The notes under the pieces were generated by a model, which was given only the letters and a program-made list of their open reading frames with translations, had not been told where the DNA came from and searched no databases. This document shows, in pieces, positions 1,186-20,000 of a stretch of DNA of 20,000 nucleotides (position 1 is the stretch's first letter; each line of letters begins with the position of its first letter). Source of the stretch: Jimgerdemannia flammicorona (taxonomy: Eukaryota); the NCBI GenBank assembly GCA_003990765.1, contig RBNJ01000013.1, positions 44,762 through 64,761 of the forward strand. Direction: 5' to 3'. The position numbers and the translations under genes were made by a program.

Positions 1186-1390
1186 GAGAGGAGTGGAACA
1201 CAGTGAGGAAAGCTCCAGATTGCAAGTATAAGCATAAGTATAAGCTTTGCTCTGCTCAGTCTGACAAGCTAATAATAAGCTAATATCATGTGATATCAGC
1301 TATCAGCTGAGTGAAGCAAAGCTTGCACTTGTGCTTATGCTTATGCTTATGCTTGTAATCCAGAGCTTTCCTCACTGCATTCCACTCCTC
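1186..1390. mobile_element. Foldback/MITE-like palindromic element 2
   Basis: agaggagtggaacacagtgaggaaagctccagattgcaagtataagcataag... is the reverse complement of ...cttatgcttgtaatccagagctttcctcactgcattccactcctct. It shares its central motif with element 1. Confidence 0.7.
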
Positions 1391-1499
1391 TTACATTCTA
1401 CTCCTCTTGTATTCCACTCCTCTTGCATAACCCTCATATATTCCTCCACCTCCCTCACCCTCATTTCTCAGATTGCAAACAACATGTAATTTAGAAATG

Positions 1500-1605
1500 A
1501 GTTTTGAAAGAGATTTTGAAGAGATTCTGAAAGAGATTTCAAAGAGATTCCAAAAGAGCTTCTAAAAGAGATTTTAGAGAGATTCTGAAAGAGCTTCTGA
1601 AAGAT
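1500..1605 (+). repeat. Degenerate ~11-12 bp tandem repeat (GAAAGAGATTCT-like)
   Basis: About 9 successive gaaagagattYY-type units. Confidence 0.7.
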
Positions 1606-1729
1606 GTTATAGCTTTTGAATATTTAAGATATTGAAAGCTTACTTTTATCTCTCATTCTTTTCACCTCATCCTTTACTTCACCTTGTCCTTCACTTTGCC
1701 TTACTTAATTCACTGCTATATTGAGAAAA

Positions 1730-3012
1730 CATGGATATGACTGTCTGGTCAATAAGTATTTACTTGGTCCCCCCTAAGCTTGACATACTTTAGCTCACTA
1801 TCCCAAAGCTTGGCACTCTAAAGATGCCCAGCTTGCTGATATCCAACCTGCTGAGCTTGCTGACACCCAGCCTACTGAGCTTGTCAACACTCAGCCTATC
1901 AAGCTTGCTGACACCCAGCCTGCCAAGCTTGCCAATACCCAGGTTGCTGAGCTTGCTGACTCCCAGCTTACTGACCCTCAGCTCCTCAATCTCCAGCTTG
2001 ACCACCAGCTCACTGCTGGTCTGCAAGCACAAGGTCCCCCACCAGATCTCAATAATGTAGCTTGAAAAAGTTAGTTTTTTTTTTTTTTTCATTTTAAATC
2101 AATGTCCAAATTTTTTTCCTAATAATATTTGAAATATATATATCCTCTAGCTTCTAAGCCTGGGCTGGAGTACAAATCTTGCTACAATTGCCATTTTTGC
2201 TATTAAGTTTGCCCAAGCACTATCTGGAAGTATTACCAAACCAATTTCCTAGATGCCCCAAATCTCACAGAGAAAAGGCCTTATAAATCAGACATTAGGT
2301 ATGTTTTCACTGTGGCCAACAAATGTATTAAGAAAGTACATGACAACCAACTGAGGCAAGAAGTCATAAGAGTGATAAAAAACTATGTAAAAATTATAGA
2401 ACATTTGTCATACTATGCTGGCTTCAAGGTGAATGCCAAAGCATGGAACAAGCAAGATTGTCCAGATAGAATTGTTATCATAGATGAACATGAAAAACTG
2501 CTGGCCATATTTGAATGAGTACTAGTGAAGAATGACAAAATGCTTTATATACAACTGATGGATAACAGACTTGTGCATTTTGTTGAGAGTAGTGGTGGTG
2601 GAGAAGATGAAGAGATGGGAGAGATTAGTGCTGGTGGAGGAGTCAGTGCCAGTGGAGAGGTCAGTGGAGAGGTCAGCATGGGGGAGGTTGGTGTGGGGGA
2701 GATTGGTGCAGGGAAGGTCAGTATGGAGGAATATGGAGAGATCAGTGTGGGGGAGGTCAGCATGGAGGAACATGGGGAGGTCAGCATGGAGGAATACAGT
2801 GAGGTCAGTATAAAGGATGAAATGGAGGTTAGTATAGAGGAGGTTGGTGCAGAGAAGGATATGAAAGAGGAGGATATAGAGAAAAGTGGTTCAGAATATA
2901 TGAAGGAAGATGATTTGGAATATGAGAAGAAGAAGGATCAGTTGGTTTATAGTGATAAAGAGGAGGAGGATTAGTTAGTTTATAGTGAGGAAGAGTAAGA
3001 TCTATTCATACT
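1730..3012 (+). pseudogene. Decayed, probably intron-containing gene or TE ORF of unknown function (Pro/Ser repeat, globular segment, acidic G/E-rich tail)
   Basis: ORFs 2312-2518 and 2525-2974 are in the same frame and separated by a single TGA. Intron-like segments are present: gttagt...cctctag (2070-2150), gtatgt at ~2298, gtaagt at 3013. No recognisable domain. Confidence 0.35.
1827..2000 (+). repeat. Degenerate 24-bp (12-bp subunit) tandem repeat CCCAGCCTGCTGAGCTTGCTGACA
   Basis: About 7 imperfect units. They generate the PSLLSLLT / SKLGRLGV periodic ORFs on both strands. Confidence 0.75.
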
Positions 3013-3159: not shown

Positions 3160-3465
3160 TAGATTAAAGATGGATCTATGTTAGGTTAAATATAGATCAG
3201 GGTTGGGTCATATATATTTCTCAGATCAGATCACATATATTTCTTGGGTTGAGTTAAAGATGAGTTACATATAATTCTGAGTCAGATTAAAGATGGGTGA
3301 CATATATTTCCAGATCAGGTTAAAGATGGATAATATATAATTCTGGGTCAGATTAAAGATAGGTGATATATAATTCCAGGTTGAATTAAAGATGAGTGAT
3401 GTATAATTCTGGATCAGATTAAAGATGGGTGATGTATAATTCTGGGTTGAGTTAAATATGTACAT
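3160..3465 (+). repeat. 33-bp minisatellite (GGGTYRGRTTAAAGATGGGTGAYRTATAATTCT)
   Basis: ttaaagat recurs at 3254, 3287, 3320, 3353, 3386 and 3419 (period 33), with degenerate copies on the flanks. Confidence 0.9.
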
Positions 3466-3793
3466 GAGTTAGCTTGGGTTGTAATGCACTAGCTATTATA
3501 GATAGAAAAAAGAGTAATAATAATAAACTAGTTAGATACTAGACTAGGAGTAGTTGTTAGAATTGAGATAGGTATTATCTTGGTAGAGCTTTTTGATTAA
3601 CTAGAGTAGTATAGTAACTAATATTCTAGCTTATCTAACTAGAACTAAGAGCTAATATAACAATATGATCAAGATCTGTAGTAGGATTATAATCTTTTCA
3701 GGCCTTAGCCTATATGTATATTAATCCTTTTGAGAGAGTCTTATATATAGGTTTTTTACTCATCTACTATAAATCTATTCTACTTTTTATTAG

Positions 3794-3797
3794 TTAG
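3794..3797 (+). repeat. Left target-site duplication TTAG
   Basis: TTAG lies immediately before the LTR start TGTCA and again at 12565-12568 immediately after TTACA. Confidence 0.8.
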
Positions 3798-4135
3798 TGT
3801 CATGTAGTGGTTGCTGAGTCTTTCAAATACACCAGATTCTCTTCAAGGTGTATCTCTTAGACTAACTCAAGTTTGTTATAAGCAAGTTCTTATTGGACTG
3901 CCTTCCTAAGGTCTTATAGTCCTTAAACTTCTTATCTTTAACTGTCTTGTTATCTCTTAAATTGCTTGCAAGGAAGTGTGTGTAAGTAAAACTGGAACTG
4001 ACTTTATTTCAGAGAAAATAAGAGGGGTATTTATACAAAATATAATTCAATGGTTGCTAAGATATAAAGTTAAATATAAATTCCAATAACTAAAACTACT
4101 AAGTTCCAGGGTTGGCACTGATGGTTGTACAGGCT

Positions 4136-4305
4136 CAGGATACTGGTATAATTCAGTGTCATATCAGAATACTGGTGCTGGAATAATTTCGCATCACCTC
4201 AGAATACTGGTACTGGAACAATTTCACATTACCTCAGAATACTGGTGCTGGCATTATCCAGTGTTACATGAGAATACCAGTGCTGGCATTATCCAGTGTA
4301 ACAAA
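4136..4305 (+). repeat. 35-bp tandem repeat inside LTR (5 units here, 4 units at ~11378-11510)
   Basis: cagaatactggtgctgg-like unit starts at 4136, 4165, 4200, 4235 and 4270. Confidence 0.8.
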
Positions 4306-4309
4306 GAAC

Positions 4310-5116
4310 TTAGAGCAGAAAGTTCAGGACTATGTGGGCTTCATTCTCATCATCATCATCACTGAAGGAGATGAGATCTATAAATTTATCATTTTCACAT
4401 GATTTGATGTTATACGAGATGACATCATCACTGATGACATCATCATGTTTGGTGGGGAAATCAGAGAGGAGGTCTGGGGCTCTCCAGTCTATGAGGTTCT
4501 CTTCCACAAAATAAGGGACAAATGTGGGATCTTGGGGAGATCTAACTCAGATGCTTGGGCCTTGGAATACTGAGATCAACCCTTGCAGGAATTGGTCTGG
4601 GTTGTCCTGGAGGATAGGGTACCAGAAGTCTTCTACTTCATCACTATTGAGGGTGATAGTGGACTGGGCTTCTGTAGCTATCCTGACTTCTAGTGCATTG
4701 ATACAGTGGGATAACAGATCTCTGAAATCTGAGACTCTAATATACTCCAAGTTGGGGATCAACTATGGTACATGTCTGAAGATCTGATAGATCTTCTTAG
4801 CTGTCCTTATTTCATATATATCCATGGAAGTGGCATCTTGTAGCTCTTGAGTGCTGGCCTGTGGGAACTCCTAGCAGAGGAGGTTTCCTATTTCGTACTC
4901 CTGCCACATTTGGAGACATTCAGTAGCAATGGTGATCCTTGTTTCCATTTCACAGCAGTAGAGGATAAAGTGATAAGAGTCTGCAGTACTCAGGTTGACA
5001 CTAGGAGTTCTTCTTGAACAGGTCCTCATGGCTCTTCTGATGTCTTAGAACATCCTTTCTTTGACTGAGATACCTTGGTGGTTCCTTGACCTTGAGGTTT
5101 GGTAGGCAGCAGGCAT
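4310..5116 (-). pseudogene. LTR-internal (U3) ORF, ~268 aa, unknown function (3' LTR copy)
   Basis: aaaaATG at 5116 to TAA at 4310: MPAAYQTSRSR...DIRRAMRT...YEIGNLL...RTAKKIYQIFRHVP...SDDDDENEAHIVLNFLL*. All four internal stops are sense codons in the other LTR. Confidence 0.7.
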
Positions 5117-5358
5117 TTTGTTTGTAGTAAGTCTTTGAGCTATTTTGGGATTGGTGGTTCTTATTGGTTGCTGCTACTGCAGTTCCTTGATCCTTCTTTT
5201 ATATTCTTCAGGATACTTGTACTGTGGTTACAATGACTCACAGTTAGTCATCATTGCTCATCTTGTATACCATATGATCTTCTTGTGTTCTGATCTGGTG
5301 ACTTATAAGGAAAAACTATCTCCCATGCTAATGTCATCATTCTGAGGTCACCATTACA

Positions 5359-5368
5359 TCTTCCTCCT
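5359..5368 (-). other. Polypurine tract (AGGAGGAAGA)
   Basis: Purine-only run on the minus strand directly abutting the TG start of the 3' LTR. Confidence 0.85.
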
Positions 5369-5671: not shown

Positions 5672-6908
5672 TTATGATTTGCAGACTAGAACCTCATGGG
5701 CAGTCATCATGTTTTGCTTCTCTTGTATAGATTTGTGGTACTTCTTGAGTCTGTTCCTATATATTGTAGTAGGCAGTATAGTCTCTGAGATTTTTCTAAG
5801 CCAGAAGGTAGTTCCCTTGATATCTTGCATGTAGAAGAGTTCTTCCCATTTGGGCTCCAGTTTTTGTAACTATGAGGCTTCTACCATATTTTGATACAGT
5901 AGAACCTTTTCTCCAATTCAGATAGGTTCTAGGGCCTTATGATTCTTTTCTGTATTCTTCCTTATCAGTGCTTGTAACTTGGTGATATAATCTTCAGCCT
6001 TCTTCTAGTCTCCAGATTTCTGCATCAACCCATCTCCAAGTTAGATCTAGATTCATGGCTGAGGTTCCATCAGAATCTTCTTCTCCGAAGAGCAGCTCTC
6101 TTGGAGTAAAGTGTGTGCTCTGTGACTATATGTCTCATAGGACAGAGAGGGCAGTTGGGAGATAGTTATCCCAATTCTCATATATCTCTGAGATCTTCAC
6201 TAGGATATTCTTGAGGGTCTTGTTGGTTCTCTCTATCTGTCCATTTCCTTAAGGGTGGTATATAGTGGTCTTGATGTGCTGGATCTTGTATTTCTGATAT
6301 ATTATCTCATGGAATCTATTGACAAATTCTGTTCTGTAGTCTGTTGTGATTTGCTTTGGTGTCTTGTAGCAGTAGATGATTTCTCGATGCAGGAAGTCAG
6401 CTATAGAGAGGGCATTGGCTTCTTGTAATGCTCCTGTCTCTATCCATTTGGTGAAGAGGTCTACAATAACTATAATATAGTGGTTTCCTGATAGTTTTAC
6501 TGATAGTGGTCCAATAATATCCATTGTGATATAGTGGAAGGGGATAAGCTCAATTTTTAATAATCTGGATACCTGGTCTTGCTGATCTTGTTTCTGTTTT
6601 TGACACTTGTCACACCCTTTGACAAATTGGCACAGGTCTTCTTCCATCTTGGGCCACTATATGGTTCTTCTTGCCTTATCATATGTATTGGTTCTTCCTA
6701 AGTATCCTTGCTCATGTACTTCCTTCATTACTTGATACTTCTTATATTCAGATATTACTAGCTTTCCTCCTTTTCTGAGTATAGTGTTGTCTAATTCAAA
6801 CTGTTTCCAAGTCTGGTTGATGATAGTGATTGTTCAGGGTTTAAGGTAGTTGGGCATCTTCTGCTGCCTAAAATAGCTGATTAATCCATAGTATAGCTCC
6901 TTATTCAT
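5672..6908 (-). pseudogene. Integrase (HHCC zinc finger, DDE core, GPY/F-like C-terminus), disrupted
   Basis: HEQGYLG...WPKMEEDLCQFVKGCDKCQ; ITMDIIGP, ITTDYRTEF, GNGQIERTNKTL; C-terminal KLEPKWEELFY...RNRLKKYH. Contains stops and one frameshift. No chromodomain seen. Confidence 0.9.
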
Positions 6909-7300
6909 GTTGAATAGTCTTGATGTAGATATTTTGGGGTATTCTTGAGAGTGCATCAGCATTGGTGTTGATCTTTTCTGAGTGGTGCTTGACAGTACAG
7001 TCATACTCTTGCAGTCTGTAGATCCATCTGGCATATATTCTTTTGGGGTTCAGAGTGTGGAATAGCCAGACAAGAGCAGAGTGGTCTGTTTGAATAGTGA
7101 AGTGTTTCCCAGCTAGGTAGTAGTGGAACTTGTCTACTGCCCAGACCACTGCTAAGCATTCAAGCTTGCATGACTCATAGTTCTGTTCTGCTCCGCAGGT
7201 ACCTTGGCTTGCATAGGAGATGACATATTCATGTCCATCTTTCTTCTGAGCTAGGACTGCTCAAAGTCCTATAGCACTTACATCTGTCTGCAGGATGAAT
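6901..7300 (-). pseudogene. RNase H of Gypsy pol
   Basis: FILQTDVSAIGL*AVLAQ...YASQ...EQNYESCKLECLAVVWAVDKFHYYL...TDHSAL...RWIYRLQEYD...NTNADALSR. Confidence 0.93.
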
Positions 7301-8250
7301 TCTAGGTTCCAATCTGGTCTTCTGAAGATAAGTACTTGAGTCAATCTGATCTTGAGTTCATTGAAGGTTTCTTGGCACTCCTTGGTCCATTCAAACTTGG
7401 TTTTCTTCTTCAGTAGCTCATAGATAGGTGCTGCAATATTGGAGTATCCTTTGATGAATTTTCTATAGTAGCTGGCTAGTCCAAGGAAGGCGTGGACTTC
7501 TGTAGTTGTTCTGAGTCTCAGATAGGCTGCAACAGCCTTGATCTTCATAGAGTCTGTGTGGATTCCAGTCTGGTTGATGAGGTGTCCTAGGTAGGTGATT
7601 TCTTGAGCTGCAAACTTGCATTTTTTGGGCTTGATGTAGAGGTCATACTTCTTGAGCTTCTTGAGGGCTAGCTGTATATGATTGACATATTCCTGTATAG
7701 TGTTGCTGAAGATGATCACATCATCAACATAGACAAAGAGCCATTTTCTAATCTCGTTGCTGAAGACTCTGTTCATCATTTGCTGAAAACTTGCTGGGGT
7801 ATTGCATATTCCAAATAGCATTCACAGATAGATATAGGTGGCATTAGGTGTGATGAAGGCTGATTTCTCACTGGCATCTTGAGTGAGACCAATCTGATAG
7901 AAGTCTGAGAACAGATCCAAGGTGGTGTAGTATTTGGCTTTACTTCCAAGAGTGGTAAGGATTTCCTAAATATTTGGCAAGGGCTGCCTATCCTTCTTGG
8001 TAATAGCATTGAGCTTCCTGTAGTCAATACAGAGTCTTGGCGCAAATTCTCCAGGCTTGTTTCCTTTCTTTGGGGCAAGGACAATGGGTGAGGCCTAGGG
8101 GCTGATAGCTTGCTTGATGATCCCGGCTTCTTCTATTTCCTTGAGTTCTGCTTGCAGCCACTCTCTGTAGGCAGGTGGTATGGGTCTGGCTTTCTGGTAG
8201 ATGGGCTTGGTATTGCCAGTGTCAACTTCATAGTAGTACTTGGATTCTTA
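7301..8250 (-). pseudogene. Reverse transcriptase (Gypsy type) and connection region
   Basis: ASPIVLAPKK...RLCIDYRKLN...TLDLFSDFYQI...MLFGICNTPASFQ...YVDD (7720-7731)...KKCKFAAQEITYLGH...FLGLASYYRKFI. Several nonsense codons. Confidence 0.96.
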
Positions 8251-8419: not shown

Positions 8420-8835
8420 CTTCCAGTAGATCCAAAGTCTTGTTCTCCTCTCTTGGTCTTGATGAGTTCGATGGCTTCAATGATCTTGGGCTTCTTAATT
8501 TCATGGATCAGCATCTGACCAATCCTGTCATACTTCTTGACTTCAAAGGGGGTGATGTAGTTGTGATTTCTGACTATGAGGAAGATCTCACTAGTGTAAT
8601 CGGGGTCAATTACTCCTCCTTCAACTGAGATTTTGCTTTTGACCAGACTGCTCCTGGTCTTGATAATTCCGGCATGGTTCTCTGGCAGCTTGACTCCAAT
8701 TCCAGTGTCAAGTAGGATAGTGGTCTGTAGTTCTAGGATAGCATCTTGAATGCTGGCAAGGTCCATTTCTATGGCTCCTTCAGTCTTATATTCTGGGATC
8801 TTGGCTTTGGGGTAGAACTTCTTAACCTTGAGAGT
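8420..8835 (-). pseudogene. dut: Trimeric dUTPase domain within pol
   Basis: All five dUTPase motifs in order: TEGAIEMDL (I), KTRSSL (II), GGVIDPDYTSEI (III), YDRIGQM (IV), RGEQDFGSTG (V). Same frame as RT. Confidence 0.93.
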
Positions 8836-9189
8836 GATGTCTGATTCTTGTTCCTCCTCATTGTCACTGTCAGCTTGGAGCTCTGGGGGCTAGTCATCTT
8901 CTTCAGCTTTCCTTTTTACTTTGGTAGCTTCTTGCTCATATTTCTGTTGACAGATTTTCCTAACTTTACTGATACAGGACCAGCAGTCATTCAGGTGTTC
9001 AGAGCAGTACATCCTAGTACCATGGGGGCATCTTCCTTGAGGGGCATAGCCATCGATGATCTTGTTGTACTACTGCTCATCTGTAAGCTTGGGTGTCTTG
9101 TTCTTGTTCTTATTCACTGAGTGCATAAAGACCTCTGTATCCTTTTCATCTCCTTCCTCTATGTCTAGTAGGACTCCTTTGTAAACATT

Positions 9190-9560
9190 GATAGAGACTT
9201 ATACCTTTCTTCCTCTATAGTTGATCTGCATCTTCTGGGTATTGAGGTCAATGATAGCCTTGGCCTTATGAAGCCATTGGTTACTAATGAGGATGTCATA
9301 GTTGGTGGTGCTTATAACAATCACATCTACTGGGATAGTAGCTTGATGGGGACTTCTTGGATTTTGCCAAGGGGGATAGCTTATGTACCATCTGCTGTAA
9401 CATAGACCATCTTGGTGGACTCTTTAATATCCCAGCCTAGGCAGTCAATTGCCTTCTTACTCATGAGGCATTCTCCAGCACTAGTATCAATGATGGCATC
9501 AAAGATACAATCTTCGATCTGACATAAGGTATAGGCTGATATCTTGCACTGGTCTTCGGA
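9190..9560 (-). pseudogene. Retropepsin-like aspartic protease
   Basis: AIIDTSAGECLMS (DTGA>DTSA), VTADGT, then YDILISNQWL...AIIDL. One stop and a frameshift near 9342. Confidence 0.85.
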
Positions 9561-9834: not shown

Positions 9835-10983
9835 TCATCTATATAACTCCATGTCTTGATCAATTTTCTCAGGTTGGGTCTTGCTTTGAATAGTGACAGC
9901 TGGGGTCTTCTTTGGTCTTCCAACTGGCTTGCTGTTGCTCTTTTTGTCATAGAGCTTGGACTGGGTTCTGGTACCTTCAGTAGTAGGATAGAATTCAAGC
10001 TCCTTATAATATTCTTCATCATCAGTGTCACCAATCTCCTCAATGACTACTGTATTGGTTTGTTCTCTGGTTCTACTAGTATTGCTTAGTTGGGCTTTGT
10101 GTCTTATTTTGGTTATGTAATTCTTTGCATAGTGGCCTTCTTCTCTACATCTGAAGCATGTGATATTGCATTCTTCTATAGCAGCTGCAAATCTCTGTAC
10201 TAGTCTCCTGTTAGTGCTTTGGACTTCTCTAACAACATCACTAAGGTATGCAATCATCTCAGCAAACTGCTTAACAAGTTCCTCCACTGGGTCAGCTTTG
10301 GCTATCTTGGGGATAGGTGGGGTTGATTGTCTGTTTACAACTATAGCAGGTAAGATACTAGTTGACTTTGATGGCTCTATCTTGATGTCAGTTATTTTCT
10401 CTATTGAGTGTTCGGCAGAGTGTCTGGCAGTCCAATATCTCTATACAAAGACTACTTTCTGATCAAGAGTCAGTGCAGCTGGGGTAGACCGGATTGCTAG
10501 GGCAATTTCAGAGTGAACTCCTTTGAGGAAAGTTGAATCTGCTATTTGTTCCTTGAGGCAGTCATCATAGCCAGCCAAGACAATCTGGTGGCGGATTCAG
10601 GTATAGAATGAGTTGGGATCTTCACTAAGTCTCTGGCAGATAGTATTGAGTTGATCCTTGAGAGCTTGCTTGATCTCTTTGGTATAATATATTATTCTGA
10701 GGAAGGCCTTCATGTTGGCAAGTTTGGCTGCACCAGCATCAGCAATGGTGGCTATATTGAACTTGTCTCTGGTAGGTCCTCTGAGGCTGACTGGTAGGAG
10801 GACCAATTGAGTATCCATACCAAGGGCTTGGATAGTAGCAAATTGTTCAAAGTCTTCAATGAAGGTCAGGATTGACTCTTCAGTAGTATATCCATAGAAT
10901 GTGGGGGGATATATTTCTATCTTATCTTGAATTCTTGCAGAGGTGACTCTTGTAGTCAGGGTAGTTGTTGTGGAGTTGTTCAT
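9835..10983 (-). pseudogene. gag with CCHC zinc knuckle
   Basis: ATG at 10983; PPTFYG...FIEDFE...SLRG retrotransposon-gag-like region; CFRCREEGHYAKNY (10117-10158, last Cys>Tyr). In-frame stops at 10597 and 10441. Confidence 0.85.
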
Positions 10984-11018: not shown

Positions 11019-11036
11019 ACCAGCCAATGGGTACCA
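11019..11036 (-). other. Putative primer-binding site TGGTACCCATTGGCTGG
   Basis: Begins with TGG (complement of tRNA CCA) 3 nt inside the 5' LTR end. Cognate tRNA not identified. Confidence 0.65.
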
Positions 11037-11244
11037 AGTTGTCATATAGTGGTCACTGAGTCCTTCAAATATGCCAGATTCTCTTCAAGGTGTATTTCTT
11101 AGACTAACTCAAGTTTGTTATAAGCAAGTTCTTATTGGAGTGCCTTCTCAAGGTCTTATAGTCCTCAAACTTCTTATCTTTAACTGTCTTATTATCTCTT
11201 AGATTGCTTGCAAGAAAGTGTGTGTAAGTGAAACCAGAACTGAC

Positions 11245-11277
11245 TTTATTTCAGAGGAAATAAGAAGGATATTTATA
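11245..11277 (-). promoter_or_regulatory. LTR TATA box (TATAAATA, 11277-11270) and polyA signal (AATAAA, 11250-11245); same motifs at 4035-4028 and 4008-4003
   Basis: Both motifs are conserved in both LTRs in U3-R order on the element's sense strand, implying a U3 of ~1.29 kb. Confidence 0.55.
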
Positions 11278-11516
11278 CAAAATATAATTCAATAGTTGCT
11301 AAGATATAAAGCTAAATATAAATTCCAATAACTAAAACTACTAAGTTCCAGGGTCAGCACTGATGGTTGTACAGATTCAAGATGCTGGTATAATTCAGTG
11401 TCACATCAGAATATCAGTGCTGAAACAATTTTGCATCATCTCAGAATATTGGTGCTGGAACAATTTTACATTACCTCAGAATACTGGTACTGGTATTATC
11501 CAGTATAACAAAGAAC

Positions 11517-12322
11517 TTAGAGCAGAAAGTTCAGGACCATGGAGGCTTCATTCTCATCATCATTATCACTGAAGGAGATGAGATCCATGAATTTGTTATT
11601 TTCATATGCTTCGATGTTGCGCAGGATGACATCATCGCCAATGACATCATCACATTCGGCAGGGAAATCAGGGAGAAGATCTGGGGCTCTCCAGTCTATA
11701 AGGTTCTCTTCTACAAAATAAGGAACAAATGTGGGGTCTTGGAGAGATTAATCTGAATGCTTGGGCCTTGAAATACTGAGATCAACCCTTGTAGGAATTG
11801 GTCTGAGTTGTCCTGAAGGATAGGGTACCAGAAGTCTTCTACTTCATCACTATTGAGGGTGATAGTGGACTGGGTTTCTGTAGCCACTCTGGCTTCTAGT
11901 GCATTGATATGATGGGATGATAGGTCTCTGAAATCTGAGACTCTAATATACTCTAAGTTGGAGATCAACCATGGTGTATATCTGAAGATCTGATAGACCT
12001 TCTTAGCTGTTCTTGTTTCATATATATCCATGGGAGTAGTATCTTGTAGCTCTTGAGTGCTGGCCTGTAGGAACTCCCAGCAGAGGAGGTTTCCTATTTT
12101 GTACTCTTACTATATTTGGAGGCATTCAGTAGCAATGGTGATCCTTGTTTCCATTTCATAATGGTAGAGGATAAAGTAATAGGGGTCTGCAGTACTCAGA
12201 TTGACACTAGGAGTCCTTCTTGAGTGGGTCCTCATGGCTCTTCTGATGTCTTGGAACATCCTTTCTTTGACTGAGATATCTTAGTAGTTCCTTGACCTTG
12301 AGGTTTAGTGGGCAGCAGGCAT
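11517..12322 (-). pseudogene. LTR-internal (U3) ORF, 5' LTR copy
   Basis: Same ATG and terminal TAA as 4310-5116. Carries its own private stops and a 1-bp deletion. Confidence 0.68.
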
Positions 12323-12564
12323 TTTGTTTATAGTAAGTCTTTGAGCTATTTTGGGATTGGTAGTTCTTGTTGATTACTGCTACTGTAGTTCCTTGATCCT
12401 TCTTTTATATTCTTCAGAATGCTTATACTGTGGTCACAATGACTCACAGTTAGTCATCATTGCTCATCTCATATACTGTATGATCTTCTTGTATTCCAAT
12501 CTGGTGGCTTGCAAGGAAAGGCTGTCTCCTATACTGATGTCATCATTCTGAAGTCACTGTTACA

Positions 12565-12568
12565 TTAG
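12565..12568 (+). repeat. Right target-site duplication TTAG
   Basis: Matches 3794-3797. Confidence 0.8.
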
Positions 12569-13103: not shown

Positions 13104-13339
13104 AACTTGGATCTCTTAAAATCAATATTGAAGTTAATATTTAAAACAAAATAGTAATCTGAGAACTATAAAAGAAGTAGTACTCTGAATGAGTCAATTC
13201 AATCTAGATTGAATTCAGATTAAATCTCATTTGGATTAGCTTAGATAGAAAATGAGCTGATCTAGATTGATTCAAATTGAATATTATTTTGATTTCTAAT
13301 ATTAACAACTTGATATATAATTATCTAATTTTAATTATT

Positions 13340-13487
13340 ATAGTGTCATTTTAAAGCTCTTAATAAGACCTTTCTAATAATATCAAAAACATTGAAATTA
13401 GATTATATATTGCTGAGTTATTAAGAAAAATGTCTGACTTACTGATTTTGGAAATTATCCTTATTAAGAACTTTCAAATGATACTAT
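13340..13487. repeat. 28-bp imperfect inverted repeat pair, probable decayed DNA-transposon remnant
   Basis: atagtgtcattttaaagctcttaataag (13340-13367) versus cttattaagaactttcaaatgatactat (13460-13487), 3 mismatches. Confidence 0.55.
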
Positions 13488-13967
13488 GATCATTAAAATT
13501 AGATGATTATACATTAAGTTATTAATGTAAACATTGAATTGTCTAATTTAGAAGTTAATTCAGATCTGCTCATTTAGAATACTAGAAAGAAGATATTATT
13601 TTTATTTTTTGAGATTTTCTTTTTGTAAATAATTTATATTAAGATATTAAAGAGAATAAGATAAAGATAGAGACAGAGGTAAATACAGAGACAGAGGTGA
13701 AGACAGAAGTTCTGACATTATGATTTCTGAGTATAGACTTGACATTATAAGTTCTTTGCTCTAAAGATATATAACCTAGATGTATGTATTTTATTCTCTT
13801 TATTCTAATGTCAAAGTATACTGGCCAAGACACCAAGAAGTTTGAATGCTTTGGATGCAGAAAGTAATATATATAAAGGGAGTTTATTTTTACAGATAGA
13901 GGACATGAGGGAGGTGGATATAAATATATACTTCTGTAGTAGAGAAGCTAGAAACGACGCCGGCTAA

Positions 13968-14050: not shown

Positions 14051-17000
14051 ATGTCATCCCCGGACAAAGATCTCGCTCAACTAGACGCCCTCTTTGAGAA
14101 GCTTTCCGTTCTCGATGGTATATTACGTCGCACCGTCCGTCTGCACTGCCATGCTGTCGCTTAAGCTGAATCTTACATAAAAACTACAGCAAATGACGTA
14201 GAGACCCTGAAGGACGAACTCCCCGCCGTCGTTGATAAACTGCAAAAGAACGAACTTCTGCTGAGGAACTCGGAAAATGCAGCCGACTCAAAACTCCTAG
14301 ACCCTGTCTGGGCGCGGGTCAAGCGGGGGGCCGAGATTTGCGCAAATGCCGCGAAGGACGGTACGTGTCGTTCTCGTGTTTTTAACGGCGCTCTGCATGT
14401 GAAGGGATCGAATGCACATAATTCCACCTACTGTTCATTCCAATTAATAGCACGTACGTTTGATTGAAATTTTGCTTAATGCAGAGTCGGCAAGGACGCC
14501 CATTGGTGAATCCGGCTCGATAGAGCTTTTGGTAACTTTTATGAAGTTATCCAGCCCGACACACGTCGAGGTTACCATTCAATGCCTGCGGGCCCTCGCC
14601 AACCTCTGCTTCGATCATGGTATATAGCTCTCTCTTTTTACGTTAGTTTGGAAGGGATCAATGAAGAAATGACAGACATGATCATCACCGGCGTACCGAA
14701 ACTCAATCTTTGACAATCCCGTAATCCTACTCCATCCGCCAGACGTGAATCGCAAGCGAACGTCGACCACCGGCGCCGTCTCCGTCATTATCGGGTTCGT
14801 CAACACATCTAACAACGCCAACCTGGTGCGGACCTCGTGCGGGGCGCTGCTCAATCTCGGTTTGAATTATGGTTGGTGATGGGCACCACAATCCTTCTCT
14901 TGGAACGTTTGCCTTTGCTTCTGTTTGGGTCAGCTTGCCGCCCGCTCATCCATCTGTCCGTATCCCCTACGTACATATCCGCAGAACCTATCCAAAGTGA
15001 GATCCTTCGCCTCGAAGGCCTCCCCGTCCTCGTCAAGCTCCTCTCTTCAGATCGACTCAATCACCAGGCTGTTTGCCTCGCGGCGCGCGTTATCAATTAC
15101 CTCGTCGGCCTCGGTACGACCCCACTGCTGTCTTTCTTTGCCGTCTTTTTCTGTCCGCATTCTTCTTTGTGCTCAAATTTACAATGAAATACGATACATC
15201 CTCAGATAAGGGCCGCCTCCAGTTTACCAAGATCGAAGCCATTGTATCCTTCGTCAAGGTGCTCGAGTATTCGTGGCAGGTGGACAAGAGCCAGGACCTG
15301 GACCTGATGGAGTCAGTGGTGGACGTGCTGGAGTCGACCGTGCTGGAAGAGAGTGAGGGCATCTTTGGTTGCGCTGCGGTTGAATGTTTAGGCGATTGAA
15401 TCCGTCTGCTGTTGTGATGCTCCCGGATTTCGGATAGTTTTGTGATTTCGAAATCGGCGTGTAAACCTTGATCGTAACGTTTCATCCTCCGCCAACTTTT
15501 GTGCGACACAGAGGCTGACGCTATCCAGCACACCGTCGCCAAATCCGGCGTGTTTCCGCTCCTGCTCGACTTCGTCGAGAGCGCGACGCCGCCAAAGCAC
15601 GCCGACGAGGACGACCAGAAGCAGTTTAATGAACTGAGGAAGACGGTCGTCAAGATCACCGTCGCTGTCACGCTAACTGGTAGGTTCGCTTGCGGATTGA
15701 GTTTGCTACTGGTGCAGAGATAAGACATGAGCTTTAGGAATGGTGCGAATGCGAGGTGGAATTTGTCGAGACAGGGCGTTGCACCAAAACGTGGGACATG
15801 GGCAGGGTAATTTCGGCCAAGCGACCATAACAATGGAGTGTCATTATGATACCTTTTTTTTCGATGCCTTTTCGCCTTCATCAATCGCCAGACAGCAACA
15901 TGAACCTGCTCTATAAAGACCAGACCATCCTCGGCCGCTTTATTAGTTGGCTCCGCGACGACGTATTCGCCAGCCGCGACGACCTCCACGCCTGCGCGGC
16001 TCTGAGCATTGGGAACCTGGCGCGAAACGGTGAGTTTCACGCGTGCATAATGGGTTGTTTAGATGCCCACCGAGACTAATTGGATCCCCGTGCGGCCACC
16101 TTCCAATCATGCAGACGAGCACTGCATCGACCTCGTGCAGAAACATCACCTCGAGGTTCCGCTGCTCGCCATCCTTATGAGGACAAATGACATGCGGACG
16201 CAGCACGCCGTCATCAGCATTGTAAAGAATCTGAGCTTGCCCAGTATGTAGACTCTCGTTATCCCATTATGTTTTCTTGGAGAAAGGTAGACTTGGAGAA
16301 GACGGTCAGCATTGTATTCAAGTTGCGCGTCGTTCGTCATCTAATGCAGAGGCCAACAAGTCCCTCCTAGGCGCGTCTGGGGCGATCCAGGCGGCCGCAC
16401 GCTTCCTCAAGGAGTCCAAGGACATGCTCAAGCCGATCCAGTTTGGGGCCGTCGGGGTTCTGAAGCACCTGGCGACAGGGAACTGTGGGTATCTTATTAG
16501 GAATTCGTGCAGCAAAGCGTTTTGAGGTCGTGGTTGCAATTAGAGTTGAGAAGTCCAGGCGTTCGTTCCTACCGAGGCCATGCTGGTTGTATAATCTCAT
16601 CCGCCCCATGCAATTCCATTGCATACTTGTCTCTTTTGTCTGCATCACCCCTATGTTTTACCACAGTTGAGAATGCAAGCCGCATGATTACCGGTCGCGA
16701 GCCGTCGGACCAGTCGCCGTCCTTGACGACGACGCCGCTCGATCGGCTGATCGCATTGGTTAGGCGGACGGATGATATGCCGACCAAGAGCGAGGGCACC
16801 CGTGTACTGGTCAATCTGGTAAAGGTCGTCTGGGCGCAAGGTGGGTGATTTTCGGATCGCTTGGATGTGATAGGTGGTTCCAATATTCGTGCAAGCGGTC
16901 GGTGTGCGTGGTTCTGGAAGGTGTATTTGCCTGTTGATATTGGCTTTTTTGATGTCTTGTTTTCTTTGCGCTTTTCAGACGTCTTAACCGACATCCTACA

Positions 17001-17841
17001 GCCCAAGGACGGCATCTCGACGGCCCCCCTACGTCGCACGCTCCTCAAGAGCGACGGCGTAGTCCCGCCGATCGCGGAGATGATCCGCACCACGCAGTTT
17101 CCCGTACTCCAGAACGAGGGCGTCATGGCACTCACACTTCTGCTGGCGTCGTCCAAGGATGAGGGGGGCGCGGTGGATACAGGTGAGGAGTTGTGAGTGG
17201 AGAATTGGATCTAACCAATACGGTATTCGTGTCATAGTGTGCTCATAACCGAATCGGTTGTTTGGACGCACAGTCTTCACATCTCTGACGACCACGCCCG
17301 CGCCGCCACCCCTCACGGAAGAGGAGGAGGAGGAGGAGGAGGAGAAGGAGAAGGACCCGAAGCCCAAGCTGCCGTCCAAGCCGCTGCTAGACATCTTGAC
17401 GGATATCGTCATGAACGTATCGGGAAAGTACCCTGACGAGATCAGATGTAATGTTTGTTTATTGCTTGGGAGGATTGCTGCGAGTGAGTGTCTTTATTGT
17501 TTTGGTTGTTTCCCCCCAGGATGTATATGTTTGCGAGGATGTGTGGTTTCGGTTCGATTGCAATTGATATTGGACGTCGGTTGTCGTTTGAAAAAGAGCA
17601 TCCCGAAGGTGAACCGCTAGATCATGTCGAAGTAGGATTTCTCACTGAGCCTTTCTTCACCTCCCACTTTGCATTACATTTGATACCATTCGTATTATTC
17701 CCTCCCAAAACAGTTAACCCTGTGAAATACCTCTCGATCGCGAGCGACGTTCGTGGTAAGTTAGAGTCGTTCGCCAACGCCGGCGAGGCCTCGACCATGG
17801 TCATGGAGAGCGTGCGGCAAGTCATGCATAATCTGCACTAA
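14051..17841 (+). CDS. RAP1GDS1: SmgGDS/RAP1GDS1 (Bem4-like) armadillo-repeat small-GTPase chaperone/GEF, 14 exons, 687 aa
   Basis: Exons 14051-14117, 14190-14360, 14485-14619, 14743-14871, 14985-15113, 15206-15352, 15512-15679, 15892-16029, 16115-16243, 16350-16484, 16667-16840, 16979-17182, 17274-17483 and 17714-17841. All introns are GT-AG and the joined frame is open (2064 nt). Family motifs: QCLRALANLCFDH, AALSIGNLARNDEHC, QHAVISIVKNLSLP..NK, SEGTRVLVNL, VLQNEGVMAL, EIRCN. Confidence 0.88.
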
Positions 17842-17979
17842 GAGGCCGAGCTTACAAGTTTTTTATCTTTGCAACGGTCTGGGGTTTCTTATCTGTATTT
17901 GTATAATTTCGTGGGCGATCCAGTCTGAATGAAAGAGGACTTTGAAATCCGAATGATTACGTTTGTGATGATATATACC

Positions 17980-18188
17980 GAATTTCCTATGACCATTGAT
18001 GGTGTACCAGATCTACTATGATCTTGAGTAAGGTGTACTAGATTTCCTATGACCTTGTGCAAGTGTATTAGATTTCACTAAGGTTATTAGATTTCCTATG
18101 ACCTTCAGAAAGATTTACTAGATTTCCTATGACTTTCAGTAAGGTTTATTAGATTTCCAATAAGGTTTACTAGATTTCCTATGACCTT
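17980..18188 (+). repeat. ~31-bp intergenic minisatellite, core AGATTTCCTATGACCTT
   Basis: Unit starts at ~17980, 18009, 18040, 18070 (short), 18089, 18120, 18151 (short) and 18172. Confidence 0.9.
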
Positions 18189-18196
18189 AATCGCTT

Positions 18197-18203
18197 TGAG
18201 TCA
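18197..18203. promoter_or_regulatory. Putative Gcn4/CpcA site TGAGTCA upstream of ILV3
   Basis: Exact TGA(C/G)TCA consensus ~140 nt before the ATG of an amino-acid biosynthesis gene. A CCAAT is also present at 18270-18274. Confidence 0.45.
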
Positions 18204-18340
18204 CGATCATAATGGGTTGCACAGACGCGTCGAAGCGAACGCAAGCCACCGACCAGTCTATGGATTTGACCAATAAAGATCCGAGCTTTTTGCAGGTCAT
18301 ATCTGCCATCCATCTTTTTATTTCCTTCGCGTCCTCCATC

Positions 18341-19952
18341 ATGGCTTCAAGGATCCTACTATCGAAGCGTCCCCCGCACAGTCAAAAGTTCGTCCCCAGA
18401 GCCTCCGCCGTCGGCCTGCGGCACTACACGTCCTCCTCTGACGGTATCAATAAGTACAGCTCTATCATCACCCAGCCCAAGAGCCAGGGCGCGTCTCAGG
18501 CTATGCGTAAGGACGCGTTCCCTTGTGGTTTTGAGAGTCTTACAACTTACTGATCACCATCCGTCCTTGGAGCAGTACTTACTCCTTCATCCCTCACATG
18601 CCCTTCTCGTCTCTCTGGCATCGCTCAATAGTGTACGCCACAGGCCTCGACGATAATGATCTCAAGAAGGCCCAAGTCGGGATCTCCAGCGTGTAAACCC
18701 CTTTCTCTCTCAGGCTTTTCTTTCTTTCCCTTGTATCGATCCTCTCTAACCACTCACCCTTTTTACCTTACAGGTGGTACGAGGGCAACCCCTGCAACAT
18801 GCACCTACTGGATCTCTCCGCCAAGGTCAAGGAGGGCGTGCAGAACGCCAGCCTGATCGGATACCGGTTCAATACCGTCGGCGTGAGCGACGGAATCAGT
18901 ATGGGAACGAGGGGGATGAGCTACTCGTTGCAGAGTAGGGATCTGATCGCGGATAGCATCGAGACGGTGGGTGTGTTTGAGTGCGGATTGGGGGTGGGGT
19001 AGTCTTCTTGATGGCCCGTATATGCACATTAAATATCGATTGCTACAGAGCCACGTCAAAATTCCACCCAGACGAACCCATCTTTATCCAGCCTGCCCTT
19101 TTCCTCCCTATCCTAGGTCATGGGTGCGCAATGGTACGACGGCAACATTTCGCTCCCCGGGTGCGACAAGAACATGCCAGGTGTGCTGATTGCCATGGGT
19201 CGACTCAACCGGCCAAGCCTGATGGTCTACGGTGGCACTATCCGACCAGGCAAATCGTGTGCGGGTGACACCCTCGACATTGTCTCGGCCTTCCAGGCCT
19301 ACGGCGAGTTCGTCGCCGGTTCCATCAACGAGGAGAAGAGGTACGAAATTATCAGGAACGCGTGCCCGGGCGCCGGCGCCTGCGGTGGAATGTACACTGC
19401 TAACACGAGTGAGTAGAATGGATTGATGCATGCTTTGTCGCCGTACGTTTTTATTTTCTATACTCACCTCCTCATAACCGCACGTGCAGTGGCCTCCGCC
19501 ACGGAGGCGATGGGCATGACGCTTCCGTATTCGTCGTCTACGCCAGCAACGCATCCAGACAAGATTAAGGAATGCCTGGACGCTGGCACTGCGATCCGTA
19601 CCCTACTCGAGCGAGATATCAAGCCGCGCGACATTATGACGCGTAAGGCGTTTGAGAACGCTATGGTACTGACGATGGTGCTAGGTGGTAAGGAAAATTG
19701 GGAAGGGAGGGGGAAATGGGAGAGGGGGGTCGACGGAGATCGTGGGTAAAATATGAGGGTATAGGTATTTTTAATGAGGCGAAACGTGCATGATCTCATT
19801 TTGATGGACTGGGGGGATATCTAAATTATAGGTTCTACGAACGCCGTGCTCCACCTACTCGCCATCGCTCGTTCCGTCGGCGTTACCCTGACTATTGATG
19901 ATTTCCAGACCGTCAGCGACCGTATACCCTTCTTGGCTGACTTGAAACCTAG
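18341..19952 (+). CDS. ILV3: Mitochondrial dihydroxy-acid dehydratase, 5' part (continues beyond window)
   Basis: Exons 18341-18506, 18632-18692, 18774-18966, 19117-19408, 19490-19687 and 19832-19952. Motifs [73 protein letters not shown]. Arg/Ser-rich presequence. Confidence 0.96.
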
Positions 19953-20000
19953 GTATGTGGATAACAAACAATGCCTTCGATTGCGGTTTTTTTTTTTTTT

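What the first reader, a model, noticed from the sequence alone, without database searches (positions are those of the whole stretch)
8420..8835. dUTPase in frame between protease and RT of a Gypsy retrotransposon
Seen: all five trimeric dUTPase motifs, in the same frame as RT and RNase H, downstream of PR. Known: dUTPase is rare in LTR retrotransposons. In retroviruses it sits N-terminal to PR (betaretroviruses), between RNase H and IN (non-primate lentiviruses) or after IN (ERV-L). I recall a few fungal Metaviridae with dUTPase (Tuber Tmt1, Phanerochaete elements), so this is rare rather than unprecedented. Inference: it may be an independent capture or an old shared lineage, limiting uracil in cDNA in non-dividing nuclei. 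The combination with a U3 ORF makes this a retrovirus-like 'complex' element.
Basis: partly seen in the sequence, partly recalled or inferred. Interest (0 to 1): 0.75.

Follow-up and report, generated by a model that had tools for sequence, protein, structure and literature searches.

The report
dUTPase in fungal Gypsy retrotransposon family
A decayed fungal jumping gene carries, between its protease and reverse transcriptase, a real dUTP-destroying enzyme domain; its whole family shares it, and this arrangement is already described in other fungi and in rotifers, so the finding is mostly ordinary.

Summary
Confirmed: a trimeric-type dUTPase domain (PF00692, E 1e-23) lies at 8835-8422 (minus strand), in the RT/RNase H frame, downstream of the protease of a dead 8.8-kb Ty3/Gypsy copy. 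It is not a private insertion: at least 150 genomic copies carry it, 16 of 16 informative RT-selected copies have it, and it shows purifying selection between related families (dN/dS about 0.13-0.17). The PR-dUTPase-RT order is published (PosPlaTy3-5, rotifer and planarian elements). It is not rare here: at least six dUTPase-bearing Gypsy families share this genome, which also keeps an intact DUT gene. The domain is probably not a capture of the host gene: it shares a shorter motif 2-3 spacing with viral and retroviral dUTPases and sits outside the cellular group (98/93). Its donor is unresolved and no specific retroviral link was found. Most likely job, inferred and untested: removing dUTP inside the particle during reverse transcription. 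The U3 ORF is real; there is no env. Other features: a separately encoded integrase and a Cys/His finger shared with unrelated chromoviruses. This scan reported these and the U3 gene before, on other DNA of the same genome.

The parts
11040..12564 (-). 5' LTR, 1525 bp, TG...CA
   Evidence: 160 differences from the 3' LTR in 1524 aligned columns, 154 of them transitions
11525..12322 (-). U3 ORF in the 5' LTR (about 265-280 codons from the conserved ATG; decayed here; function unknown), with a TATA-like box near 12409 upstream
   Evidence: stop-to-stop frames of 289-299 aa in three other LTR copies; ATG in 30 of 30 and TATAAAA in 30 of 31 LTR matches; lies upstream of the main TATA and AATAAA, hence U3; no Pfam hit, no confident Atlas hit
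11019..11036 (-). primer binding site complementary to the 3' end of a host tRNA-Thr(UGU); one mismatch in this copy
9835..10983 (-). gag with one CCHC knuckle (10158-10120), broken by stops
9130..9560 (-). aspartic protease, split over two frames in this copy
8974..9080 (-). small Cys/His finger between protease and dUTPase
   Evidence: conserved in families A and D, L072, L073 and P0024, and in chromovirus families E and F; 25 of 43 residues identical between A and F, E 2e-20
8422..8835 (-). dUTPase domain (trimeric type, five motifs); no stop inside, three motif glycine positions substituted
7500..8229 (-). reverse transcriptase, with in-frame stops
6901..7389 (-). RNase H, followed by the family-wide ORF1 stop at 6903-6901
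5672..6908 (-). integrase as a separate ORF in the +1 frame; its ATG overlaps the ORF1 stop; no chromodomain; frameshifted and broken in this copy
5359..5368 (-). polypurine tract
3798..5358 (-). 3' LTR, 1561 bp, with the second copy of the U3 ORF (about 5116-4310)
3794..3797 (.). 4-bp target site duplication (partner at 12565-12568)
   Evidence: 4-bp duplications also in 2 of 3 other full-length copies checked

Best explanation
The domain is a long-standing, selected part of the Gag-Pol polyprotein of a non-chromovirus Ty3/Gypsy lineage; the window holds a dead copy. Shown: ORF1 of the family is one frame, Gag-PR-finger-dUTPase-RT-RNase H, and the dUTPase keeps its catalytic motifs. Inferred: the protease releases the domain inside the virus-like particle, where it forms a trimer and hydrolyses dUTP to dUMP and pyrophosphate next to RT. 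Less uracil enters the cDNA, so host uracil-excision repair destroys less of it before integration. Because gag and pol share one frame, the enzyme would be made about one-to-one with Gag. The domain most likely came from the pool of viral and mobile-element dUTPases, not from this fungus's own DUT gene.
For: Family-wide presence: 150 of 150 scored matches at 86-100% identity among 8059 candidates; 16 of 16 RT-selected copies with enough upstream DNA (30 loci examined, 14 too short). Motifs: catalytic Asp in 39 of 40 copies; 21 of 40 have all 17 motif positions and no stop (copies chosen by dUTPase similarity, so biased upward). Selection: dN 0.27 against dS 1.6-2.0 between families, like the capsid region. 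Same order in family D, L072 (62% dUTPase identity) and P0024 (43%), which form one RT clade with A (SH-aLRT 95). Origin: motif 2-3 spacing of 13 residues against 14 in host and cellular eukaryotes and 16 in bacteria, gap-free alignment to retroviral PDB chains 1DUN/1DUC and 2D4L, outside the cellular group at 98/93, host capture rejected under LG+G4 (p-AU 0.002). Analogy: retroviral dUTPases matter in low-dUTPase cells (PMC4531489, passages), and uracilated HIV DNA is degraded before integration (PMC5030084, abstract).
Against: No activity, processing, trimer or expression data were obtained. The host keeps an intact DUT gene, so need is not obvious. Only 2 of the 150 best protein representatives carry a dUTPase, so relatives manage without one. 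Under the mixture model the A+host clade was not rejected (p-AU 0.163), and the LG+G4 constrained searches were short. dS is near saturation. A + P0024 dUTPases as one clade is allowed but unsupported. A dUTPase cannot prevent the C-to-T decay that killed these copies.
Confidence: 0.65

Rival explanations
1. The dUTPase and the adjoining Cys/His finger are an accessory module that co-resident, unrelated Gypsy lineages exchanged by recombination, and they act as a unit (for example the finger binds nucleic acid and holds the enzyme near the RT complex, as nucleocapsid does in betaretroviral NC-dUTPase). This is compatible with the best explanation and concerns history and localisation.
For: The finger is 58% identical between A and chromovirus family F while their RTs are about 40% identical and lie in different clades. 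It always sits between dUTPase and protease. Family E has the same 13-residue spacing and a similar motif 2-3 core. All own-genome TE dUTPases as one clade is not rejected (p-AU 0.14).
Against: The order is reversed (PR-finger-dUTPase in A, D; dUTPase-finger-PR in E, F), so one cassette insertion cannot explain both. Families B and C have dUTPase without the finger, with 14 spacing, and group with the cellular type. A, E and F dUTPases do not form a supported clade. Nucleic-acid or zinc binding by the finger is untested.
Confidence: 0.3
2. The domain was captured from a fungal host DUT transcript by an ancestor of this lineage and then diverged fast.
For: A processed, intronless copy of the host DUT gene exists in this genome, so the mRNA does get reverse-transcribed. 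Other TE dUTPases nest with cellular ones (P0288 with Podospora, 97/93). The mixture-model AU test did not reject A+host (p 0.163). The A branch is long.
Against: 34% identity to the host-like copy against 44-46% to viral and other TE sequences. Different motif 2-3 spacing. Outside the cellular group at 98/93. Rejected under LG+G4 (p-AU 0.002, 0.0005 and below 1e-30 for three host/fungal groupings).
Confidence: 0.15
3. The domain is kept for a non-enzymatic job (scaffold, spacer or protein-binding switch), as reported for the inactive dUTPase-like protein of bovine immunodeficiency virus.
For: PMC4261571 (title and start of abstract in a search listing) reports an essential but inactive retroviral dUTPase-like protein. 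The host has its own enzyme. Motif 1 of family A departs from the usual pattern.
Against: All five motifs, the catalytic Asp and the C-terminal arm are retained across families A, D, L072 and P0024, whereas the BIV protein is described as only partly resembling the motifs (PMC4531489, section 8).
Confidence: 0.1
4. The domain is a neutral passenger or a private insertion in this copy.
For: The window copy is dead and its motifs are partly decayed.
Against: Present in 16 of 16 informative RT-selected copies; in frame; dN/dS about 0.13-0.17 between families.
Confidence: 0.02

Closest known systems
Fungal dUTPase-bearing Gypsy elements: PosPlaTy3-5 of Postia placenta (PMC2864245); Tmt1 of Tuber and the Phanerochaete elements (known here only as cited in PMC2864245, PMC5408684, PMC6431247)
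   Same: Gypsy LTR element in a fungus with a dUTPase in Pol; PosPlaTy3-5 has it between PR and RT; sister families in one genome carry it at other positions, as here.
   Different: The published dUTPase tree concerns chromodomain-containing elements; family A has no chromodomain, lies outside the chromovirus RT clade, has a separate integrase ORF, a Cys/His finger and a U3 ORF. Sequence-level relationship not testable here.
Bdelloid rotifer Juno, Vesta, TelKA (PMC5408684) and planarian Burro (PMC6431247)
   Same: dUTPase between PR and RT; extra ORFs; Juno has an extra zinc knuckle beside the dUTPase.
   Different: Animal hosts; ORF3 there is env-like or enzymatic; in Juno the knuckle follows the dUTPase, here the finger precedes it; no separate integrase ORF in the passages read.
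Retroviral dUTPases of betaretroviruses and non-primate lentiviruses (PMC4531489)
   Same: Five-motif trimeric type inside a retroelement polyprotein; same shorter motif 2-3 spacing.
   Different: Different positions (before PR; between RNase H and IN); no env here; the spacing also occurs in many viral contigs without RT; the lentivirus-type sequence does not group with A.
Caulimovirid polyprotein with dUTPase (locus L314)
   Same: dUTPase in a reverse-transcribing element's polyprotein; falls in the same weakly supported part of the tree (85/74).
   Different: dUTPase lies between the zinc knuckle and PR; coat-protein-bearing virus without integrase in the locus.

Membership tests
Ty3/Gypsy LTR retrotransposon (Metaviridae) | two LTRs with TG...CA ends and a target site duplication | tested here: met
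Ty3/Gypsy LTR retrotransposon (Metaviridae) | primer binding site and polypurine tract | tested here: met
   PBS matches host tRNA-Thr(UGU); PPT
Ty3/Gypsy LTR retrotransposon (Metaviridae) | order gag, PR, RT, RNase H, integrase with Gypsy-type domains | tested here: met
   the integrase is last but in its own ORF
Trimeric dUTPase (PF00692) | five conserved motifs including the catalytic Asp and C-terminal arm | tested here: met
   three motif positions substituted in the window copy
Trimeric dUTPase (PF00692) | homotrimer with dUTP pyrophosphatase activity | not testable with these tools
   no assay; no structure or complex prediction was run
Chromovirus | chromodomain at the integrase C-terminus | tested here: not met
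   no Pfam hit in the window's integrase C-terminus, PF00385 found in families B, C, E, F
Chromovirus | RT within the chromodomain-bearing clade | tested here: not met
   A, D, L072, P0024 (95) lie apart from B, C, E, F and P0282/P0292 (100); quick tree, SH-aLRT
Described dUTPase-bearing clades (Tmt1, PosPlaTy3-5, Phanerochaete, Juno/Vesta/TelKA, Burro) | dUTPase between PR and RT | tested here: met
   against passages
Described dUTPase-bearing clades (Tmt1, PosPlaTy3-5, Phanerochaete, Juno/Vesta/TelKA, Burro) | RT and dUTPase nest within the named clade | not testable with these tools
   no named sequence of these elements came back from any search; supplements S1 and S2 of PMC2864245 are unreadable .DOC files
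Complex retrovirus (Retroviridae) | env gene | tested here: not met
   only about 310 nt between integrase stop and 3' LTR, with stops in all frames in 15 copies; U3 ORF has no Pfam hit
Complex retrovirus (Retroviridae) | accessory ORF in or near U3 | tested here: met
   function unknown
Complex retrovirus (Retroviridae) | dUTPase descended from the retroviral lineage | tested here: inconclusive
   shared spacing but no grouping with the one lentivirus-type sequence, which is a long branch

The most novel reading that the evidence does not exclude
In this fungus, uracil in cDNA plus host uracil-excision repair is a real barrier to retrotransposition. Unrelated Gypsy lineages (one non-chromovirus clade, four chromovirus families) have answered it by acquiring dUTPases more than once, partly by passing around a viral-type dUTPase and an undescribed Cys/His finger that tethers it in the particle. 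Family A would then be a non-chromovirus lineage with a split integrase, a finger-dUTPase module and a U3 gene, not described in the papers found.
Probability: 0.2. Interest if true: 0.65.

Novelty: new member of a known kind. Interest (0 to 1): 0.33.

Why it matters
The position itself adds little: dUTPase between PR and RT is published for fungi, rotifers and planarians, and PMC2864245 says the role and origin of the domain are unclear. What this genome offers is a comparison set: six families with the domain at two positions, in two RT clades, beside an intact host DUT gene. That makes it possible to ask whether uracil incorporation limits retrotransposons in fungi as it limits lentiviruses in macrophages, and whether accessory modules move between co-resident elements. 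Neither question is answered here.

Tried and rejected
Private insertion: rejected. Chromovirus membership: rejected. Host lacks its own dUTPase: rejected, an intact four-exon gene exists. Close database relatives of the dUTPase as a stand-alone protein: none above 45% identity (13 hits among 31 candidates; viral contigs 40-47%; prokaryote genomes at most 45%). Specific descent from retroviral dUTPases: suggested by the shared spacing, then weakened, since 25 of 31 viral loci from a pattern scan show the same spacing by regex and only 2 of 31 had RT or integrase hits; the lentivirus-type sequence grouped elsewhere. Special link between A and families B/C, suggested by a shared N-terminal motif: not supported by trees, not rejected by AU (p 0.35 and 0.22). 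Homology of the U3 ORF to ORF3 of L072, suggested by eye: no BLASTP signal (E 29); Pfam and Atlas gave nothing usable. An extra ORF between integrase and PPT: none. Two careful dUTPase trees (71 and 45 rows) did not finish and only quick trees were returned; the finished careful tree has 32 rows, after dropping near-duplicates, most bacteria and several long branches. The representatives search was dominated by multi-RT concatenates. No structure prediction, complex prediction or read mapping was run. Eight literature searches found no paper describing this lineage or a Gypsy integrase in a separate overlapping ORF; the library lacks most subscription journals, and only listings were seen.

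Full report
Observation. The window holds a full-length LTR element on the minus strand, 12564 to 3798, with TG...CA ends, a 4-bp target duplication, a polypurine tract and a primer binding site complementary to a host tRNA-Thr(UGU) gene. Pfam finds protease, dUTPase (E 1e-23), RT, RNase H and integrase in that order. Its lineage was not established.

State of this copy. It is dead. Nine stops lie between the protease C-terminus and the end of RNase H, the protease is split over two frames, and three motif glycine positions of the dUTPase are substituted. The LTRs differ at 160 of 1524 columns, 154 by transition (K2P 0.117), and CpG observed/expected is 0.07 in the element against 1.10 in the neighbouring genes. 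I infer decay by methylation-driven C-to-T change, which a dUTPase cannot prevent (established chemistry, recalled).

Family-wide, not private. A search with the domain gave 8059 candidates; all 150 scored matched at 86-100%. Of the 30 loci returned, 26 show protease upstream and RT downstream; the other 4 end at contig edges. Selecting by RT instead, 16 of 30 loci had at least 600 nt upstream, and all 16 (one is the query copy) carry the domain, 15 in the RT frame. One copy has a single open frame of 1399 residues covering Gag, protease, dUTPase, RT and RNase H. Among 40 copies chosen by dUTPase similarity, 39 keep the catalytic Asp and 21 keep all 17 motif positions without a stop.

Older than the family and under selection. 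A second family in the genome (D, RT about 74% identical), a metagenome contig (L072) and a metagenome protein (P0024, RT 45%) have the same order and form one RT clade with A (SH-aLRT 95, quick tree of 52 rows). Between A and D or L072 the dUTPase has dN 0.27 and dS 1.6-2.0, a ratio of 0.13-0.17, against 0.08-0.10 for RT and 0.13-0.16 for the capsid region; dS is near saturation. Against indispensability: only 2 of the 150 best representatives carry a dUTPase, and the nearest RT neighbours outside the clade have none in Pfam.

Not rare here. The genome has four more dUTPase-bearing families (B, C, E, F), all with the domain before the protease and all with a chromodomain, in a separate RT clade. 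The host keeps an intact DUT gene with three introns, and an intronless decayed copy of it. The protein database holds further PR-dUTPase-RT polyproteins, dUTPase-PR and RNase H-dUTPase-IN forms, and a Copia-type protein with the domain.

Origin. No stand-alone relative exceeds about 47% identity. From motif 2 to motif 3 the spacing is 13 residues in A, D, L072, P0024, E and the Copia protein, 14 in the host, cellular eukaryotes, B, C and F, and 16 in most bacterial rows. The 13 type aligns without a gap to PDB 1DUN/1DUC (EIAV per PMC4531489) and 2D4L (recalled as M-PMV), but it also occurs in 25 of 31 viral loci from a pattern scan, nearly all without RT. In the careful tree (32 rows, 140 columns) a branch at 98/93 separates cellular eukaryotes, bacteria, two viral rows and B/C from A; A sits in a weak group (85/74) with P0024, E, the Copia protein and a caulimovirid; the lentivirus-type row lies elsewhere on a long branch. 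AU tests disagree on host capture: rejected under LG+G4 with short constrained searches (p 0.002), not rejected under the mixture model (p 0.163). A+P0024, A+B+C, all own TE families, and A+bacteria were not rejected. Reading: probably an old viral/mobile-type enzyme, donor unknown, and at least two acquisitions among the families of this genome.

Neighbouring features. A small Cys/His finger precedes the dUTPase in A, D, L072, L073 and P0024 and follows it in chromovirus families E and F; it is 58% identical between A and F. I checked E and F after reading note e1-7553689. ORF1 stops right after RNase H, and the integrase starts in the +1 frame at an ATG overlapping the stop in the window and 16 of 17 other copies, with the same frame change in L072 and 5 of 7 D copies; stop-restart translation is my inference. 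The LTR carries an ORF in U3, open for 289-299 codons stop-to-stop in three LTR copies, with ATG in 30 of 30 and an upstream TATA-like box in 30 of 31 matches. It has no Pfam or confident Atlas match. There is no env.

Mechanism. Shown: one reading frame, retained motifs, purifying selection. Inferred from retroviral work: release by the protease, trimer formation, and dUTP hydrolysis in the particle, lowering uracil in cDNA and its loss to uracil-excision repair (PMC4531489, passages and section 8; PMC5030084, abstract). With no gag-pol frameshift the enzyme would be about as abundant as Gag (inference). I put this at 0.65. Whether non-dividing nuclei matter was not tested.

Comparison with print. 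PMC2864245 (passages and section 5) reports dUTPase at the N-terminus, at the C-terminus and between PR and RT in three Postia families, cites Phanerochaete and Tuber elements, suggests independent acquisitions and calls role and origin unclear; its dUTPase tree and element table are unreadable supplements that bear on clade membership. PMC5408684 (passages) reports the PR-RT position in three rotifer lineages; PMC6431247 (passage) in planarian Burro; PMC2774666 (passage) mentions fungal chromovirus dUTPases; bioRxiv 10.1101/2023.09.13.557621 (one passage) reports dUTPase domains enriched with TE domains in Entomophthora. The Tmt1 and Phanerochaete papers were not seen. The scan's own notes already describe the split integrase, the finger and the U3 or ORF3 gene on other pieces of this genome (138 notes there fit the word dUTPase).

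Verdict. Real, family-wide and selected, but a new member of a known kind. Interest 0.33. What remains open is the donor, the finger, and whether uracil restricts fungal retrotransposons.

Noticed in passing
window 6908-6901 (minus); L031-L050, L072, L148-L154: Integrase is a separate +1 ORF whose ATG overlaps the ORF1 stop; conserved across copies and related families. Six dUTPase-less database proteins near this clade in the RT tree also end right after RNase H; contig-edge truncation not excluded.
   Followed up: partly
window 9080-8974 (minus); L170, L176, L150, L072, L073, P0024: Cys/His finger with no Pfam match, always between dUTPase and protease but in opposite orders in two RT clades.
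   Followed up: partly
L051/L063 (G000:C6287) and L064 (G000:C33350): An intronless processed copy of the host DUT gene, 97-99% identical to the exons of the intact gene, with substitutions in motifs.
   Followed up: partly
P0002: A Copia-type polyprotein (RVT_2) with a dUTPase after the protease-like region, from ENA assemblies without a name.
   Followed up: no
L072:5756-6256 and family D (L149, L151): A 166-aa third ORF overlapping the integrase end; no BLASTP similarity to the U3 ORF of family A.
   Followed up: partly
window 11385-11489 and 4143-4282: 35-bp tandem repeats in U3 between the ORF and the main TATA box, three copies in one LTR and four in the other; possible enhancer array.
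   Followed up: no
window 1187-1391, 797-1155, 13301-13526: Inverted repeats of 49-67 nt with 86-88% complementarity, possibly decayed small transposons.
   Followed up: no
window 1490-1974, 2666-2852, 3245-3475, 18009-18195: Several minisatellite-like arrays (periods about 12, 24, 15-24, 33 and 31 nt).
   Followed up: no
window 14100-20000 (plus): GC-rich, intron-containing host genes, including a dihydroxy-acid dehydratase (PF00920) and an unannotated gene upstream of it.
   Followed up: no
P0272, P0274: Metagenome proteins nearly identical to families A (97%) and F, so a close relative of the host occurs in JGI metagenome data.
   Followed up: no
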